Source: Crassostrea angulata (taxonomy: Eukaryota). Taken from it: DNA of 64,000 bases. How positions within the stretch are numbered: position 1 is the first letter of the stretch; the number at the start of each line of letters is the position of its first letter. The notes under the pieces were generated by a model. That model was not told where the DNA came from. It saw nothing but the letters and a program-made list of their open reading frames with translations, and ran no database searches. Positions 3,527 to 15,329 of this stretch are shown here, piece by piece. Position numbers and translations under genes: made by a program. The stretch spans positions 8,295,492-8,359,491 of the forward strand of contig NC_069115.1 in the NCBI RefSeq assembly GCF_025612915.1, in the 5' to 3' direction.

Positions 3527-3533
3527 ATTATCA
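3527..3533. repeat. 7-bp direct repeat ATTATCA flanking the palindromic element on the left (candidate target-site duplication)
   Basis: ATTATCA lies directly outside the left terminus; an identical 7-mer sits outside the right terminus at 15323-15329; it is direct, not inverted. Confidence 0.6.
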
Positions 3534-4417
3534 GAGGTATAGAATAGGGTACTTTTTATATCCTATAACCAGGCACTATAACCAGGATGTGCGCATTCGC
3601 GAACCAACTTTCCATCGGGATCGGTAAACGATTGGGAGGAAATTCGAAAGCTATTTGGAGGAACTTCGAACTGATATATGTGCAATTTAAAAATGCGATT
3701 TTTATATGAAAAATATGATCAGAAGTGATAAAAATGTTATGTACATTAGATTTTACACCAAAAAATTAAATAAATAATTGAGAGAACAATCAAAATCAAT
3801 GTTACAGGAAAACAACAGGCACTTAGCATCGGAGGGGGGGGGGGGTTGGAATGGGGGCAGGGACAGGGGGACGGGGCCGCCCTCCAGCACACGTTTTCTC
3901 GCAGCAAATATTTTTCTTGAATTTACTTATAAAAAAGTAAATTAACATACAGTTGCACCCCCCAATGCTTTTGGGACCATGTAAAATTTGAAATGAAAGA
4001 GAGGAAATAAACTGTGAAATTGAAGTTAAAGGTACACTTAGCCCCCTACCCCCACGGATTAGGATTTTCAATTATTTAAAAAGTATTTTTGAGTTGGTTT
4101 TTTTTTTCAAGGCAAGATTGGATGAGTCTGCCCTCAACCCACTTTGCTACGATGCTGGGTGCCTGAACAAAATATCATGGTTTCATTACATACATGTATG
4201 CTAGTATAAAGACTTTATGTAAACCAATATTATCTCGTGCATTGTTCCATTCACCAGGTTCTACAAACACCTTAGTCCAAAATAAATAAAAAATCCAAGA
4301 CTAGGAGGGGAAGAAAGAAGAAATCTATTTTCCTTTTTTTTTTTACTCAGGAGCTATTTTGTTGGGGGGGGGGGGTATTAGGGATGAACAGGTCACTGAC
4401 CCCTTGTAGATCTACCA
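3534..4417. repeat. Left unique terminal inverted-repeat segment of the foldback element (contains G12 and G11 homopolymer runs)
   Basis: Reverse-complement match to 14401-15322 read by eye at ~98% identity; G-runs at 3834-3845 and 4365-4375. Confidence 0.8.
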
Positions 4418-7400
4418 ATGACCTATCACCAGGGTCTGTATACACATAACCAGGGTCAGTATACCCATCATCATGGTCTCCAGGGTCAGAGTACCTATCA
4501 CCAGAGTCTGTGTACCCTTCACCAGAGTCTGTACACCCATAACCAGGGCCAGTATACCCATCACCAGGGTCTCCATACCTATCACCAGGGTCAGAGTACG
4601 TATCACCAGAGTTTGTGTGCCCATCACCAGGGTCTGTACACCCATAACCAGGGTCAGTATACCCATCACCAGGGTCTCCATACCTATCACCAGGGTCAGC
4701 GTGCGTATCACCAGAGTCTGTGTGCCCATCACCAGAGTCTGTACACCCATAACCAGGGTTAGTATACCCATCACGAGGGTCTCCATACCTATCACCAGGG
4801 TCAGAGTGCGTATCACCAGAGTCTGTGTGCCCATCACCAGGGTCTGTACGCCAATAACCAGGGTCAGTATACCCATCACCAGGGTCTCCATACCTATCAC
4901 CAGGGTCAGAGTGCGTATCACCAGAGTCTGTGTGCCCATCACCAGAGTCTGTACACCCATAACCAGGGTTAGTATACCCATCACGAGGGTCTCCATACCT
5001 ATCACCAGGGTCAGAGTGCGTGTCACCAGAGTCTGTGTGCCCATCACCAGGGTCTGTACGCCAATAACCAGGGTCAGTATACCCATCACCAGGGTCTCCA
5101 TACCTATCACCAGGGTCAGAGTACGTATCACCAGAGTCTTGGTGCCCATCACCAGAGTCTGTACACCCATAACTAGGGTCAGCATACCCATCACCAGGGT
5201 CTCCATACCTATCACCAGGGTCAGAGTACGTATCACCAGAGTCTGTGCGCCCTTCACCAGAGTCTTTACACCCATAACCAGGGCCAGTATACCCATCACC
5301 AGGGTCTTCATACCTATCACCAGGGTCAGAGTACGTATCACTAGAGTCTGTGTGCCCATAACGAGGGTCTGTATACCCATAACAGGGCCAGTATACCCAT
5401 CACCAGAGTCTCCATACCTATCACAAGGGTCAGAGTACGTATCACCAGAGTTTGTGTGCCCATCACCAGAGTCTATACACCCATAACCAGGGCCAGTATA
5501 CCCATCACCAGGGTCTCCATACCTATCACCAGGGTCAGAGTACGTGTCACCAGAGTTTGGGTGCCCATCACCAGGGTCTGGATACCCATAACCAGGGTCT
5601 TCATACCTATCACCAGGGTCAGAGTACGTATCACCAGAGTCTGTGAGCACATCACAAGTGTCAGTATACACATAACCAGGGCCAGTATACCCATCACCAG
5701 GGTCTCCACACCTATCACCAGGGTCAGAGTACGTATCACCAGAGTCTGTGTGCTCTTCACCAGAGTCTGTACACCCATAACCAGGGCCAGTATACCCATT
5801 ACCAGGGTCTTCATACCTATCACCAGGGTCAGAGTACGTATCACCAGAGTCTGTGTGCCCATCACCAGGGTCTGTATACCCATAACCAGGGCCAGTATAC
5901 CCATCACCAGGGTCTCCATACCTATCACCAGGGTCAGAGTACGTATCACCAGAGTCTGTGTGCCCATCACCAGAGTCTGTACACCCATAACCAGGGCCAG
6001 TATACCCATCACCAGGGTCTCCATACCTATCACCAGAGTCAGAGTACGTGTCACCAGAGTTTGTGTGCCCATCACCAGGGTCTGGATACCCATAACCAGG
6101 GTCAGTATATCTATCACCAGGGTCTCCATACCTATCACCAGGGTCAGAGTACGTATCACCAGAGTCTGTGTGCCCATCACCAGGGTCTGTATACCCATAA
6201 CCAGGGCAAGTATACCCATCACCAGGGTCTCCATACCTATCACCAGGGTCAGAGTACGTGTCACCAGAGTTTGTGTGCCCATCACCAGGGTCTTCATACC
6301 TATCACCAGGGTCAGAGTACGTATCACCAGAGTCTGTGTGCCCATCACCAGGGTTTGTATACCCATAACAGGGCCAGTATACCCATCAACAGGGTCTCCA
6401 TACCTATCACCAGGGTCAGAGTACGTATCACCAGAGTCTGTGTGCCCATCACCAGAGTCTGTGCACCCATAACCAGGGCCAGTATACCAATCACGAGGGT
6501 CTCCATACCTATCACCAGGGTCAGAGTACGTGTCACCAGAGTTTATGTGCCCATCACCAGGGTCTGGATACCCATAACCAGGGTCAGTATACCTATCACC
6601 AGGGTCTCCATGCCTATCACCAGGGTCAGAGTACGTATCACCAGAGTCTGTGTGCCCATCACCAGGGTCTGTATACCCATAACCAGGGCCAGTATACCCA
6701 TCACCAGGGTCTCCATACCTATCACCAGGGTCAGAGTACGTATCACCAGAGTTTGTGTGCCCATCACCAGGGTCTGTACACCCATAACCAGGGTCAGTAT
6801 ACCAATCACCAGGGTCTCCATACCTATCACCAGGGTCAGCGTGCGTATCACCAGAGTCTGTGTGCCTATCACCAGGGTCTGTATACCCATACCATAACCA
6901 GGGTTAGTATACCCATCACCAGGGTCTCCATACCTATCACCAGGGTCAGAGGACGTGTCACCAGAGTCTGTGTGCCTATCACCAGGGTCTGTACACCCAT
7001 AACCAGGGCCAGTATAACCATCACCAGGGTCTCCATACCTATCACCAGGGTCATTATATCCATCACTAGAGTTTGTGTGCCCAACAACGGGGTCTGTACA
7101 CCCATCACCAGGGTCAGTATACCAATCACCTGGGTCTGTATACCCATAACCAGGGTCAGTATACCCGTCACCAGGGTCTTCATATCTATCACCAGGATCA
7201 GAGTACGTATCACCAGAGTCGGTACACCCATAACCAGGGTCAGTATACCCATCACCAGGGTATGTACACCCATAACCAGGGTCATTATACCCATCACCAG
7301 GGTATGTACACCCATAACCAGGGTCAGTATACCCATCACCACGGTCTCAATACCTATCACCAGGGTCAGAGTACGTATCACCAGAGTCTGTGTGCATGCT

Positions 7401-14400: not shown

Positions 14401-15322
14401 TACAGACCCTGGTGATAGGTCATGGGTAGATCTACAAGGGGTCAGTGACCTGTTCACCCCTAATACCCCCCCCCAACAAAATAGCTCCTGAGTAAAAAAA
14501 AAAGAAAAGGAAAATAGATTTCTTCTTTCTTCCCCTCCTAGTCTAGGATTTTTTTTTATTTATTTTGGACTAAGGTGTTTGTAGAACCTGGTGAATGGAA
14601 CAATGCACGAGATAATATTGGTTTACATAAAGTCTTTATACTAGCATACATGTATGTAATGAAACCATGATATTTTGTTCAGGCACCCAGCATCGTAGCA
14701 AAGTGGGTTGAGGGCAGACTCATCCAATCTTGCCTTGAAAAAAAAAACCAACTCAAAAATACTTTTTAAATAATTGAAAATCCTAATCCGTGGGGGTAGG
14801 GGGCTAAGTGTACCTTTAACTTCAATTTCACAGTTTATTTCCTCTCTTTCATTTCAAATTTTACATGGTCCCAAAACATTGGGGGGGGGGGGGGTGCAAC
14901 TGTATGTTAATTTACTTTTTTATAAGTAAATTCAAGAAAAATATTTGCTGCGAGAAAACGTGTGCTGGAGGGGGGCAGTCCCGTCCCCCTATCCCTGCCC
15001 CCATTCCAACCCCCCCCCCCCCTCCGATGCTAAGTGCCTGTTGTTTTCCTGTAACATTGATTTTGATTGTTCTCTCAATTATTTATTTAATTTTTTGGTG
15101 TAAAATCTAATGTACATAACATTTTTATCACTTCTGATCATATTTTTCATATAAAAATCGCATTTTTAAATTGCACATATATCAGTTCGAAGTTCCTCCA
15201 AATAGCTTTCGAATTTCCTCCCAATCGTTTACCGATCCCGATGGAAAGTTGGTTCACGCATGCGCACATCCTGGTTATAGTGCCTGGTTATAGGATATAA
15301 AAAGTACCCTATTCTATACCTC
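14401..15322. repeat. Right unique terminal inverted-repeat segment (mirror of 3534-4417, with C/G homopolymer runs)
   Basis: Reverse complement of the left segment; poly-G at ~14881-14895 and poly-C at ~15011-15027. Confidence 0.8.
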
Positions 15323-15329
15323 ATTATCA
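15323..15329. repeat. 7-bp direct repeat ATTATCA on the right (candidate TSD partner)
   Basis: Identical to 3527-3533 and immediately abuts the end of the inverted repeat at 15322. Confidence 0.6.

What the first reader, a model, noticed from the sequence alone, without database searches (positions are those of the whole stretch)
3527..15329. 11.8-kb palindromic foldback element whose arms are a private satellite, bounded by a 7-bp ATTATCA direct repeat
The first 20 nt inside the left flank (GAGGTATAGAATAGGGTACT) are the exact reverse complement of the last 20 nt before the right flank. The inverted identity continues through ~885 bp of unique sequence (about 98% identical by eye). It then runs into 4-5 kb of 105-bp tandem repeats whose orientation flips at a single centre near 8687. 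Immediately outside both termini sits the same 7-mer, ATTATCA, in direct orientation. That is the signature of a target-site duplication, meaning the whole palindrome was inserted as a unit. There is no coding capacity. Long TIRs made of tandem repeats plus a 7-bp TSD are the hallmark of Galileo-type foldback elements of the P superfamily in Drosophila (established knowledge). I do not know of an 11.8-kb version with arms dominated by a 105-bp higher-order satellite in molluscs. It may also represent a seed, or a mobilisable carrier, for satellite DNA.
Basis: partly seen in the sequence, partly recalled or inferred. Interest (0 to 1): 0.9.

Follow-up and report, generated by a model that had tools for sequence, protein, structure and literature searches.

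The report
Foldback-type transposon carrying a 21-bp satellite
An 11.8-kb non-coding palindrome in an oyster genome, with identical inverted ends next to a 7-bp duplicated target and arms filled by a 21-bp satellite, looks like a foldback-type DNA transposon insertion; this kind is known from flies, plants and nematodes, no second copy was found, and its superfamily is unresolved.

Summary
The element spans 3534-15322. Its ends are exact inverted copies for 63 nt, and ATTATCA flanks both ends in direct orientation (chance about 1e-4). The flanks share no other homology.

- The basic repeat is 21 bp (about 463 units). The 105-bp, 315-bp and about 2-kb periods are higher-order structure.
- The arms are unequal, 5153 and 6636 bp.
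- Orientation flips at a 19-nt palindrome (8678-8696), followed by about 475 bp with no mirror partner.
- The arrays are not mirror images. Only the roughly 900-bp outer domains are (99.2% at aligned bases).

I found no coding signal, no Pfam hit and no protein homologue.

The architecture matches foldback-type non-autonomous DNA transposons such as FB, Galileo and especially Tetris. A TATAACCAGG motif sits twice at 31-53 nt from each end, and it is also the conserved core of the satellite. That suggests the arrays grew from subterminal binding sites.

Assignment to Galileo or the P superfamily rests only on the duplication length, which could be 7 or 8 bp. The duplicated sequence does not fit Galileo's consensus.

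No other copy or empty site was found, but no oyster genome could be searched directly. The host is an ostreid oyster, and the insertion lies about 2.7 kb upstream of PARP4.

Verdict: a probable new member of a known kind, of moderate interest.

The parts
3527..3533 (.). Left copy of the target-site duplication, ATTATCA (or CATTATCA from 3526 if the duplication is 8 bp)
3534..4427 (+). Left terminal (flanking) domain: 894 bp of non-repetitive sequence. It is the inverted copy of 14414-15322, and the first 63 nt are identical.
3564..3586 (+). Subterminal motif TATAACCAGG, two copies 13 bp apart, at 31-53 nt from the end. It is the same 9-10-mer, in the same orientation, as the conserved core of the 21-bp satellite unit.
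4428..8399 (+). Left array of 21-bp units (core ATCACCAGRGTC plus a 9-nt variable part) organised in 105-bp higher-order repeats. It has a few 1-nt indels and an internal direct duplication (7477-7722 resembles 8400-8641 at 91.9%).
8400..8686 (+). Left inner domain of degenerate 21-mers. Positions 8450-8684 mirror 9409-9172 at 82%.
8678..8696 (.). 19-nt perfect palindrome ATTACCTGA-G-TCAGGTAAT, lying inside a degenerate unit core. This is the point where repeat orientation flips.
8697..9171 (-). Unpaired middle: about 475 bp of the most degenerate 21-mers (at most 74% identity to any other part), in right-arm orientation, with no mirror partner in the left arm.
9172..9409 (-). Right inner domain, the mirror partner of 8450-8684. 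Part of it is duplicated again at about 11284-11358.
9226..14413 (-). Right array of about 250 units with no indel between 9301 and 14362. It has 105-bp and 315-bp higher-order repeats. A recent duplication at a 2058-bp offset is 100% identical over the windows starting at 9226, 9436 and 9856.
14414..15322 (-). Right terminal (flanking) domain, 909 bp.
15270..15292 (-). Subterminal TATAACCAGG, two copies; mirror of 3564-3586.
15323..15329 (.). Right copy of the target-site duplication, ATTATCA.

Best explanation
This is one insertion of a non-autonomous, foldback-type (very long TIR) class II DNA transposon in an oyster genome.

Shown:
- Two identical inverted termini abut a 7-bp (possibly 8-bp) direct duplication in otherwise unrelated single-copy flanks.
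- Each arm has a roughly 900-bp unique terminal domain, then 4-5 kb of 21-bp tandem units, then degenerate inner units.
- About 475 bp in the middle is unpaired.
- There is no detectable coding capacity.

Inferred mechanism:
- A transposase encoded elsewhere bound the two ends, cut the target with a 7-nt stagger and integrated both ends together.
- The TATAACCAGG pair at 31-53 nt from each end is the likely transposase-binding site.
- The 21-bp satellite carries the same core once per two helical turns. It probably arose by tandem amplification of that subterminal motif, and it may act as an array of secondary binding sites, as shown for Galileo.
- Afterwards the arrays expanded and contracted independently in each arm by unequal exchange and segmental duplication.
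- The terminal domains stayed nearly identical, either because the insertion is young or through inter-arm gene conversion.
- The flip inside a 19-nt palindrome suggests that the palindromic layout was built or repaired by snap-back (hairpin) template switching at the unit core.

The superfamily is unresolved. Length at insertion and current mobility are unknown.
For: - Termini exact and unique to the element.
- Identical 7-mers at the boundaries, chance about 1e-4.
- No other homology between the flanks.
- Terminal domains 99.2% identical at aligned bases, but with 7 real substitutions plus 3-bp and 4-bp indels.
- Arrays differ in length and in the order of unit variants, and some variants occur in one arm only.
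- No positional mirror homology inside the arrays.
- Recent 100%-identical segmental duplication confined to the right arm.
- TATAACCAGG twice at the same subterminal position in both ends, against only 2 hits with at most 1 mismatch in the 52 kb outside the element. The same core occurs once per satellite unit in the same orientation.
- No Pfam hit and no homologue for any open frame. The apparent codon periodicity disappears when events are counted once.
- Published precedents: Tetris has a flanking domain of up to 866 bp, tandem repeats, an inner domain, a middle domain, no ORF, a TSD, and only 3 complete copies (PMC4079207). [quoted passage not shown]
Against: - Only one copy is known.
- No second copy, deletion derivative or autonomous partner lies in the other 52 kb of the window.
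- ORFs from the terminal domain, junctions and flanks had no match among called proteins of public assemblies (which hit its 8000-candidate limit).
- The satellite frames also had no match.
- Metagenome contigs hold neither the terminus nor a related array.
- No empty site was recovered.
- These negatives are weak, because the host genome itself was not searchable.
- The role of the motif as a binding site is inference only.
Confidence: 0.7

Rival explanations
1. The element is specifically a Galileo-type member of the P superfamily, mobilised by a THAP-domain P-like transposase.
For: - A 7-bp duplication is canonical for Galileo and 1360 (PMC2775673).
- The TIRs are long and internally repetitive.
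- The subterminal motif lies at 31-53 nt, similar to the P-element THAP sites at 41-63 nt quoted in PMC3688188.
Against: - The duplication can also be read as 8 bp.
- ATTATCA does not resemble Galileo's GTAGTAC consensus.
- The arms are 4-5 times longer than the longest Galileo TIR of about 1.26 kb.
- No transposase is present in the window.
- The curated bivalve library of autonomous DNA transposons contains no P elements, whereas hAT and MULE are common.
- Foldback architecture has arisen in several superfamilies.
Confidence: 0.18
2. A much smaller element with the same termini (MITE-like, or with short arrays) inserted here. Most of the 10 kb of satellite then grew in place, so the 11.8-kb palindrome never moved as a unit.
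For: - Independent turnover in each arm.
- A 100%-identical segmental duplication inside the right arm that must be younger than the 0.8% divergence between the terminal domains.
- No positional mirror homology in the arrays.
- The arms are unequal.
- PMC3688188 notes that long elements transpose less efficiently.
Against: - Both arms carry the same pool of unit variants at 92-95.5% identity.
- Both arms begin with the same first three units and the same truncated unit.
- So an array already existed in both arms when they last shared sequence.
- One copy cannot date the growth.
Confidence: 0.35
3. Assembly artefact: a foldback or chimeric long read, or mis-assembly of a tandem array, created the palindrome.
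For: - Palindromic artefacts are known in long-read data (my own knowledge).
- Most indels between the arms lie in homopolymer runs, a typical consensus-error pattern.
- Array lengths in such regions are error-prone.
Against: - The palindrome is internal, with unrelated unique flanks on both sides and a precise duplication at both ends.
- The arms differ by 7 substitutions, a 3-bp indel and a 4-bp indel, about 1.5 kb in length, variants found in one arm only, and different variant order. A chimeric read would give mirror-identical arms.
Confidence: 0.06
4. Origin without a transposase: an extrachromosomal palindromic (snap-back) amplification product of a satellite was captured at a staggered chromosome break. 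Fill-in of the break created the 7-bp repeat.
For: - The 19-nt palindrome at the flip point is the type of short inverted repeat that seeds palindrome formation (mechanism from my own knowledge).
- No other copy was found.
Against: - Both arms end at exactly the same nucleotide, with 63 nt of perfect terminal identity and a subterminal repeated motif. This is expected for recognised transposon ends, not for random breaks.
- An exact 7-nt stagger with no microhomology or filler is typical of transposase integration.
Confidence: 0.07
5. The arrays are coding: an inverted duplication of a gene for a heptad-repeat protein (frame ...GDGYTDPGYG...).
For: - Long open frames of up to 1025 codons.
- The 21-bp period equals 7 codons, with almost no indels in the right arm.
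- Copy-weighted variants show 3-nt periodicity.
Against: - Four of six frames are open simply because the unit lacks stop-prone triplets.
- The periodicity vanishes when each variant event is counted once (29/32/43, p=0.21).
- No Pfam family and no homologue among 5.8 billion proteins.
- Variation falls in a 9-nt block next to a 12-nt invariant core, not at third codon positions.
- The left arm has frameshifting 1-nt indels.
Confidence: 0.03

Closest known systems
Tetris (Drosophila virilis foldback transposon; Dias et al. 2014, PMC4079207)
   Same: - Nearly the same modular plan: a unique flanking domain (up to 866 bp there, 894-909 bp here), a tandem-repeat domain inside each TIR, an inner domain and a small non-coding middle.
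- No ORF.
- Flanked by a TSD.
- Repeat number differs between arms and between alleles.
- Very few complete copies.
- Its internal repeats seeded a satellite.
   Different: - Tetris repeats are about 220 bp with a few copies per TIR (TIRs up to 1.7 kb). Here the unit is 21 bp, with about 200-260 copies per arm (arms 5.1-6.6 kb) and 105-bp and 315-bp higher-order structure.
- Tetris TSDs are 8-10 bp; here the duplication is 7 (or 8) bp.
- The host is an insect, not an oyster.
- Dispersed arrays of the Tetris repeat were demonstrated; that could not be tested here.
Galileo (P superfamily, Drosophila; PMC2775673, PMC3573991, PMC3688188)
   Same: - 7-bp TSD.
- Long, internally repetitive TIRs.
- A binding motif tens of bp from the end that recurs inside the TIR repeats.
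- Independent repeat dynamics in the two TIRs.
- The longest TIRs are found in non-autonomous copies.
   Different: - Galileo TIRs reach at most about 1.26 kb.
- Its TSD consensus is GTAGTAC, against ATTATCA here.
- Galileo membership is defined by a THAP/P-like transposase, and none is available here.
- No sequence similarity was tested or shown.
Foldback (FB) elements of Drosophila melanogaster and Mutator/Phantom-related foldbacks (Tm1 of Meloidogyne, PMC3169594)
   Same: - Elements made almost entirely of long inverted arms built from short tandem repeats (13-15 bp in Tm1; 10, 20 and 31 bp in FB, the FB figures from my own knowledge).
- Variable arm length.
- Most copies are non-coding.
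- The two TIRs are imperfectly identical.
   Different: - The TSD is typically 9 bp (8-10) in these MULE-related families, against 7 (or 8) bp here.
- Here a roughly 900-bp non-repetitive terminal domain precedes the repeats.
Satellite-carrying mobile elements of oysters (pearl/CvA; Cg_HINE Helentron non-autonomous elements; PMC7492417, PMC11136912)
   Same: Oyster genomes are already known to disperse short satellite-like arrays inside non-autonomous mobile elements.
   Different: - Those carriers are rolling-circle Helitron/Helentron derivatives, without long TIRs and without a TSD, and their arrays are short.
- This element is a TIR/TSD palindrome with about 10 kb of array.
- The bivalve papers I read mention the word 'foldback' only in citing the Tetris paper and report no foldback-type element.

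Membership tests
Foldback-type (long-TIR) non-autonomous DNA transposons (structural class) | Inverted arms make up nearly the whole element | tested here: met
   Arms span 3534-8686 and 9172-15322. Only about 475 bp is unpaired.
Foldback-type (long-TIR) non-autonomous DNA transposons (structural class) | Arms are internally built of tandem repeats behind a terminal domain | tested here: met
   About 463 units of 21 bp lie behind terminal domains of 894 and 909 bp.
Foldback-type (long-TIR) non-autonomous DNA transposons (structural class) | Short direct target-site duplication immediately outside both termini | tested here: met
   ATTATCA on both sides, chance about 1e-4, and the flanks are otherwise unrelated.
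Foldback-type (long-TIR) non-autonomous DNA transposons (structural class) | No transposase in most copies (non-coding) | tested here: met
   No Pfam hit, no homologues and no codon signal.
Foldback-type (long-TIR) non-autonomous DNA transposons (structural class) | Multiple dispersed copies with independent duplications, or polymorphic empty sites (evidence of mobility) | tested here: inconclusive
   No other copy lies in the window. None was found through public protein, contig or metagenome look-ups. The host genome itself was not searchable.
Galileo / P superfamily | 7-bp (P: 7-8 bp) target-site duplication | tested here: met
   7 bp, or 8 bp under the alternative boundary.
Galileo / P superfamily | Target consensus GTAGTAC (Galileo) | tested here: not met
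   The duplication is ATTATCA, from a single site only (consensus from PMC2775673).
Galileo / P superfamily | THAP-domain, P-like transposase in autonomous copies with the same termini | not testable with these tools
   No transposase lies in the element or the window. No eukaryotic genome search was available.
Galileo / P superfamily | Conserved ~40-bp Galileo terminal sequence | not tested
Mutator/FB-Phantom foldbacks (MULE superfamily) | 8-10-bp (usually 9-bp) target-site duplication | tested here: not met
   7 bp; at most 8 bp under the alternative boundary. Reference lengths come from PMC3169594 and PMC4079207.
hAT superfamily | 8-bp duplication and termini of the form YARNG | tested here: not met
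   The termini read GAGGT / AGGTA. The terminal consensus is recalled from my own knowledge.
Dada superfamily | 6-7-bp duplication with insertion into multicopy small-RNA genes | tested here: not met
   The duplication length fits. However, the window has no Rfam family or tRNA anywhere, including the flanks. The family's features are recalled from my own knowledge.
Satellite DNA (classical sense) | Tandem array of kb size with higher-order repeats | tested here: met
   4-5 kb per arm with 105-bp and 315-bp higher-order repeats.
Satellite DNA (classical sense) | Abundant and present at many loci | not testable with these tools
   All 155 double-core matches in the window lie inside the element. 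No array was found in metagenome contigs or in the Saccostrea PARP4 locus.

The most novel reading that the evidence does not exclude
This is one copy of a recently active foldback transposon family in oysters. It would be the first described in a mollusc. Its arms have turned a subterminal transposase-binding motif into roughly 10 kb of higher-order satellite. The element would then be a mobile carrier that can seed new satellite loci. It would be driven by a transposase making 7-bp duplications (P-like), a superfamily with no curated autonomous representative in bivalves.
Probability: 0.2. Interest if true: 0.6.

Novelty: new member of a known kind. Interest (0 to 1): 0.4.

Why it matters
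Oyster genomes are a model for how satellite DNA is scattered by mobile elements, but the carriers described so far are rolling-circle (Helitron/Helentron) derivatives.

A cut-and-paste foldback element with kb-scale satellite arms would add a second, mechanistically different carrier. It would give a clean case of a satellite unit sharing its core with the element's own subterminal motif. That makes the hypothesis 'satellite born from transposase-binding sites' directly testable.

Large palindromes are also fragile and prone to recombination. This one sits about 2.7 kb upstream of PARP4, so it could affect local stability or regulation.

If it proves to be a single, immobile copy, it is only a curiosity.

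Tried and rejected
1. Other copies in the window. The terminal 30-mer and 15-mer with up to 3 mismatches gave only the two ends plus chance-level hits. BLAST of the terminal domain, satellite and flanks against the rest of the window found only a 74% match of 3894-4028 to 25063-25200, an unrelated dispersed repeat nested in the terminal domain.

2. Public collections.
- The four open satellite frames gave one irrelevant bacterial protein.
- Exact look-ups of five window ORFs found none on record.
- The metagenome scan for the terminus gave 0 hits.
- The scan for the double satellite core gave 13 contigs with 1-2 chance matches and no arrays.

3. Empty site. Logan contigs of the same or a sister species (L001 at 95%, L002 at 98.6%) cover only the PARP4 exon region, not the insertion site. 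The Saccostrea echinata PARP4 locus (L016) has no alignable intergenic DNA, no terminal domain and no satellite.

4. Coding hypothesis: rejected.

5. Dada-like targeting of small-RNA genes: rejected.

6. A larger duplication containing the 7-mer: rejected.

7. Literal mirror symmetry of the arrays: rejected.

8. The minus-strand ORF ending at 15360, which looks like a hydrophobic C-terminal tail, could not be supported as an exon (no Pfam hit). I do not rely on my early '3' UTR insertion' idea.

9. Searching papers for the SRA run numbers and for repeat sequences, to name the species, found nothing.

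
Full report
**1. The observation**

The sequence at 3534-15322 is bounded by exact inverted termini. GAGGTATAGAATAGGGTACTTTTTATATCC occurs only at 3534-3563 (+) and 15293-15322 (-), with none expected by chance. 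The inverted identity is perfect for 63 nt.

ATTATCA lies immediately outside both ends, in direct orientation, at 3527-3533 and 15323-15329. The probability of a 7/7 match is 1.3e-4 from flank composition and 1.15e-4 empirically for this spacing.

The base before the left 7-mer is C, and the last base of the element is also C. The duplication could therefore be 8 bp (CATTATCA) with the right end one base shorter.

The 7-mers are not part of the inverted repeat, since none of the 7 positions are complementary. The flanks share no other similarity.

**2. Anatomy**

Each arm starts with a non-repetitive terminal domain: 3534-4427 (894 bp) and 14414-15322 (909 bp). The two align with 886 matches, 7 substitutions and about 10 indel events, mostly in G, C, A or T runs.

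Tandem repeats follow. Their basic period is 21 bp, not 105 bp. Spacing between cores is exactly 21 bp in 252 of 263 intervals in the right arm, with none off-register between 14362 and 9301, and in 186 of 198 in the left arm.

- A unit is a 12-nt invariant core (ATCACCAGRGTC) plus a 9-nt variable block.
- Five unit types form 105-bp higher-order repeats, and these form 315-bp super-units.
- In total about 463 units are present.
- All 155 double-core matches in the window lie inside the element, on the + strand up to 8420 and on the - strand from 9377.
- GC content is 0.51-0.52 in the arrays against 0.32-0.35 in the flanks.

Toward the centre the units degenerate. Orientation flips inside a 19-nt perfect palindrome, ATTACCTGA-G-TCAGGTAAT, at 8678-8696.

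The arms are unequal, 5153 and 6636 bp. The left inner domain 8450-8684 finds its mirror partner at 9409-9172 (82%). About 475 bp (8697-9171) of the most degenerate units therefore has no partner.

**3. The arrays are not mirror images**

- After the first three units and a shared truncated unit, the order of unit variants differs between arms. Some variants occur in one arm only.
- Every left-arm segment has many equally good partners in the right arm (92-95.5%), and none at the mirror position.
- The right arm holds a duplication at a 2058-bp offset that is 100% identical over several hundred bp.
- The left arm holds a 92% direct copy of its inner domain.

The arrays therefore turn over independently and recently, while the terminal domains differ by only 0.8% substitutions.

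This pattern argues against a foldback-read assembly artefact, as do the 7 substitutions, the 3-bp and 4-bp indels and the unique flanks. The exact array lengths cannot be verified without reads.

**4. Coding capacity**

Four of six frames are open through most of the arrays, with up to 1025 codons. This follows from the composition of the unit.

Copy-weighted variant counts seemed to show 3-nt periodicity. Counting each variant event once gives 29/32/43 (p=0.21), so there is no codon signal.

No Pfam family matches. A search of the four frames against 5.8 billion proteins returned only an unrelated bacterial protein. The left arm has frameshifting 1-nt indels. I treat the element as non-coding.

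**5. A link between ends and satellite**

TATAACCAGG occurs twice, 13 bp apart, at 31-53 nt from each terminus: 3564-3586, mirrored at 15270-15292. The 52 kb outside the element has only two hits with at most 1 mismatch.

The same 9-10-mer ([CT]AT[AC]ACCAGG) is the conserved core of every satellite unit, in the same orientation relative to the end.

In Galileo, the transposase THAP domain binds about 70 bp from the end and again inside the TIR tandem repeats. P-element sites lie at 41-63 bp (PMC3688188).

By analogy, I infer that the 21-bp satellite was amplified from the subterminal binding motif and may act as an array of secondary binding sites. A 21-bp unit spans two helical turns. This is inference, not shown.

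**6. What it is**

Two identical ends integrated at a staggered cut, arms of tandem repeats behind a unique terminal domain, a small unpaired middle and no ORF: this is the architecture of foldback-type non-autonomous DNA transposons.

The closest published match is Tetris of Drosophila virilis. It has a flanking domain of up to 866 bp, a tandem-repeat domain, an inner domain, a middle domain, no ORF and a TSD. Only three complete copies are known, and its repeats seeded a satellite (PMC4079207).

Galileo and the FB/Tm1 elements share the logic. I give this reading a confidence of 0.7.

**7. Superfamily**

The Galileo/P assignment is not established.

- Duplication length is the only agreeing character, and it is ambiguous between 7 and 8 bp.
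- ATTATCA does not fit Galileo's GTAGTAC consensus.
- The arms are several times longer than any Galileo TIR.
- No transposase lies in the window.
- The curated bivalve library of autonomous DNA transposons lists TcMar, hAT, Academ, PIF, Kolobok, MULE and others, but no P elements.
- MULE-type foldbacks usually make 8-10-bp duplications.
- hAT-like termini are absent.
- Dada-like targeting of small-RNA genes is excluded, because there is no Rfam or tRNA hit.

Foldback architecture is known to be convergent.

**8. Mobility and copy number could not be settled**

No second copy, derivative or partner is present in the window. Look-ups in public collections were negative.

These collections do not give direct access to the host genome, and reached its candidate cap. 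The negatives are therefore weak.

Short Logan contigs from the same or a sister species cover only the neighbouring gene. The orthologous locus of Saccostrea echinata has no alignable intergenic DNA, no terminal domain and no satellite. That shows only that the element is not ancient at this locus.

**9. Context**

The window carries the orthologue of Magallana gigas PARP4 (K1PUC2) on the + strand, from about 18,025 to at least 33,648. Most exons are about 88-100% identical at the protein level; Saccostrea echinata is less similar.

The host is therefore an ostreid oyster close to, but probably not, M. gigas. The element lies about 2.7 kb upstream of the likely PARP4 start (MAGVLAGC..., about 18,034).

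**10. Verdict**

This is a probable new member of a known kind. Its points of interest are the size and higher-order structure of the arms, the shared core between subterminal motif and satellite, and the host group. The bivalve repeat papers I read mention 'foldback' only in citing the Tetris paper.

Noticed in passing
window 18025-33648 (+), possibly on to about 58147: Orthologue of Magallana gigas PARP4 (UniRef K1PUC2). More than 20 exons map, most at about 88-100% amino-acid identity. BRCT and PARP catalytic domains are detected. This identifies the host as an ostreid oyster close to, but probably not, M. gigas.
   Followed up: yes
window 3817-4166 (and its mirror 14675-15035); relative at 25063-25330 (-) and in L001 1808-1937: A MITE-like piece is nested in the terminal domain. 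It has imperfect inverted ends, CAGGCACTTAGCATCG / CGATGCTGGGTGCCTG, and contains G- and C-homopolymer tracts. Part of it (3894-4028) is 74% similar to a dispersed repeat in a PARP4 intron. Because both arms carry it, it predates the last homogenisation of the arms.
   Followed up: partly
window 45209-46090 and 58682-59233: Two arrays of a tandem repeat of about 166-173 bp from the same family (3-5 copies, 86-94% matches). At 44872-45147 an adjacent ORF contains ...ELKAQVSYSDHILSVVRLSV.... From memory this resembles the Cg170/BIV160 repeats carried by Helitron/Helentron elements in oysters. I did not verify that.
   Followed up: no
window 27228-27934: A 146-bp (287-bp dimer) tandem repeat, 4.9 copies at 87% matches, lies inside a PARP4 intron.
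   Followed up: no
window 15360-15530 (-): A stop-free stretch ends ...TTTTTERPGINLALLLGASVLPLLLLVPAGLVGALTSG* about 35 bp from the right end of the element. It looks like a hydrophobic C-terminal tail preceded by an AG acceptor. It has no Pfam hit and no supporting upstream exons, so it may be spurious.
   Followed up: partly
window 51348-51740 (-): An ORF with a weak helix-turn-helix match (HTH_23, below the Pfam cutoff). It resembles the N-terminus of mariner-type transposases and is probably a transposon remnant unrelated to the palindrome.
   Followed up: partly
window 52312-52752 (+) and 53048-53518 (+): Two neighbouring ORFs share a motif, ...QEGD[IL]G[TA]DSDLPPPPPP..., followed by proline- and glutamine-rich sequence. 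They have no Pfam hit and may be duplicated exons.
   Followed up: no
window 36710-36817; 15668-15722; 30199-30246: A 17-bp minisatellite (6.4 copies, 97% matches), a (TA)27 tract and a (GA)24 tract. A (TA)n tract also lies in the Saccostrea PARP4 locus, at L016 about 22142-22220.
   Followed up: no
L001 (SRR327425) and L002 (SRR6063134): These public short-read assemblies match the window's PARP4 region, introns included, at 95% and 98.6% identity. Sequence data from the same or a sister species therefore exist and could be mined for the empty site.
   Followed up: partly
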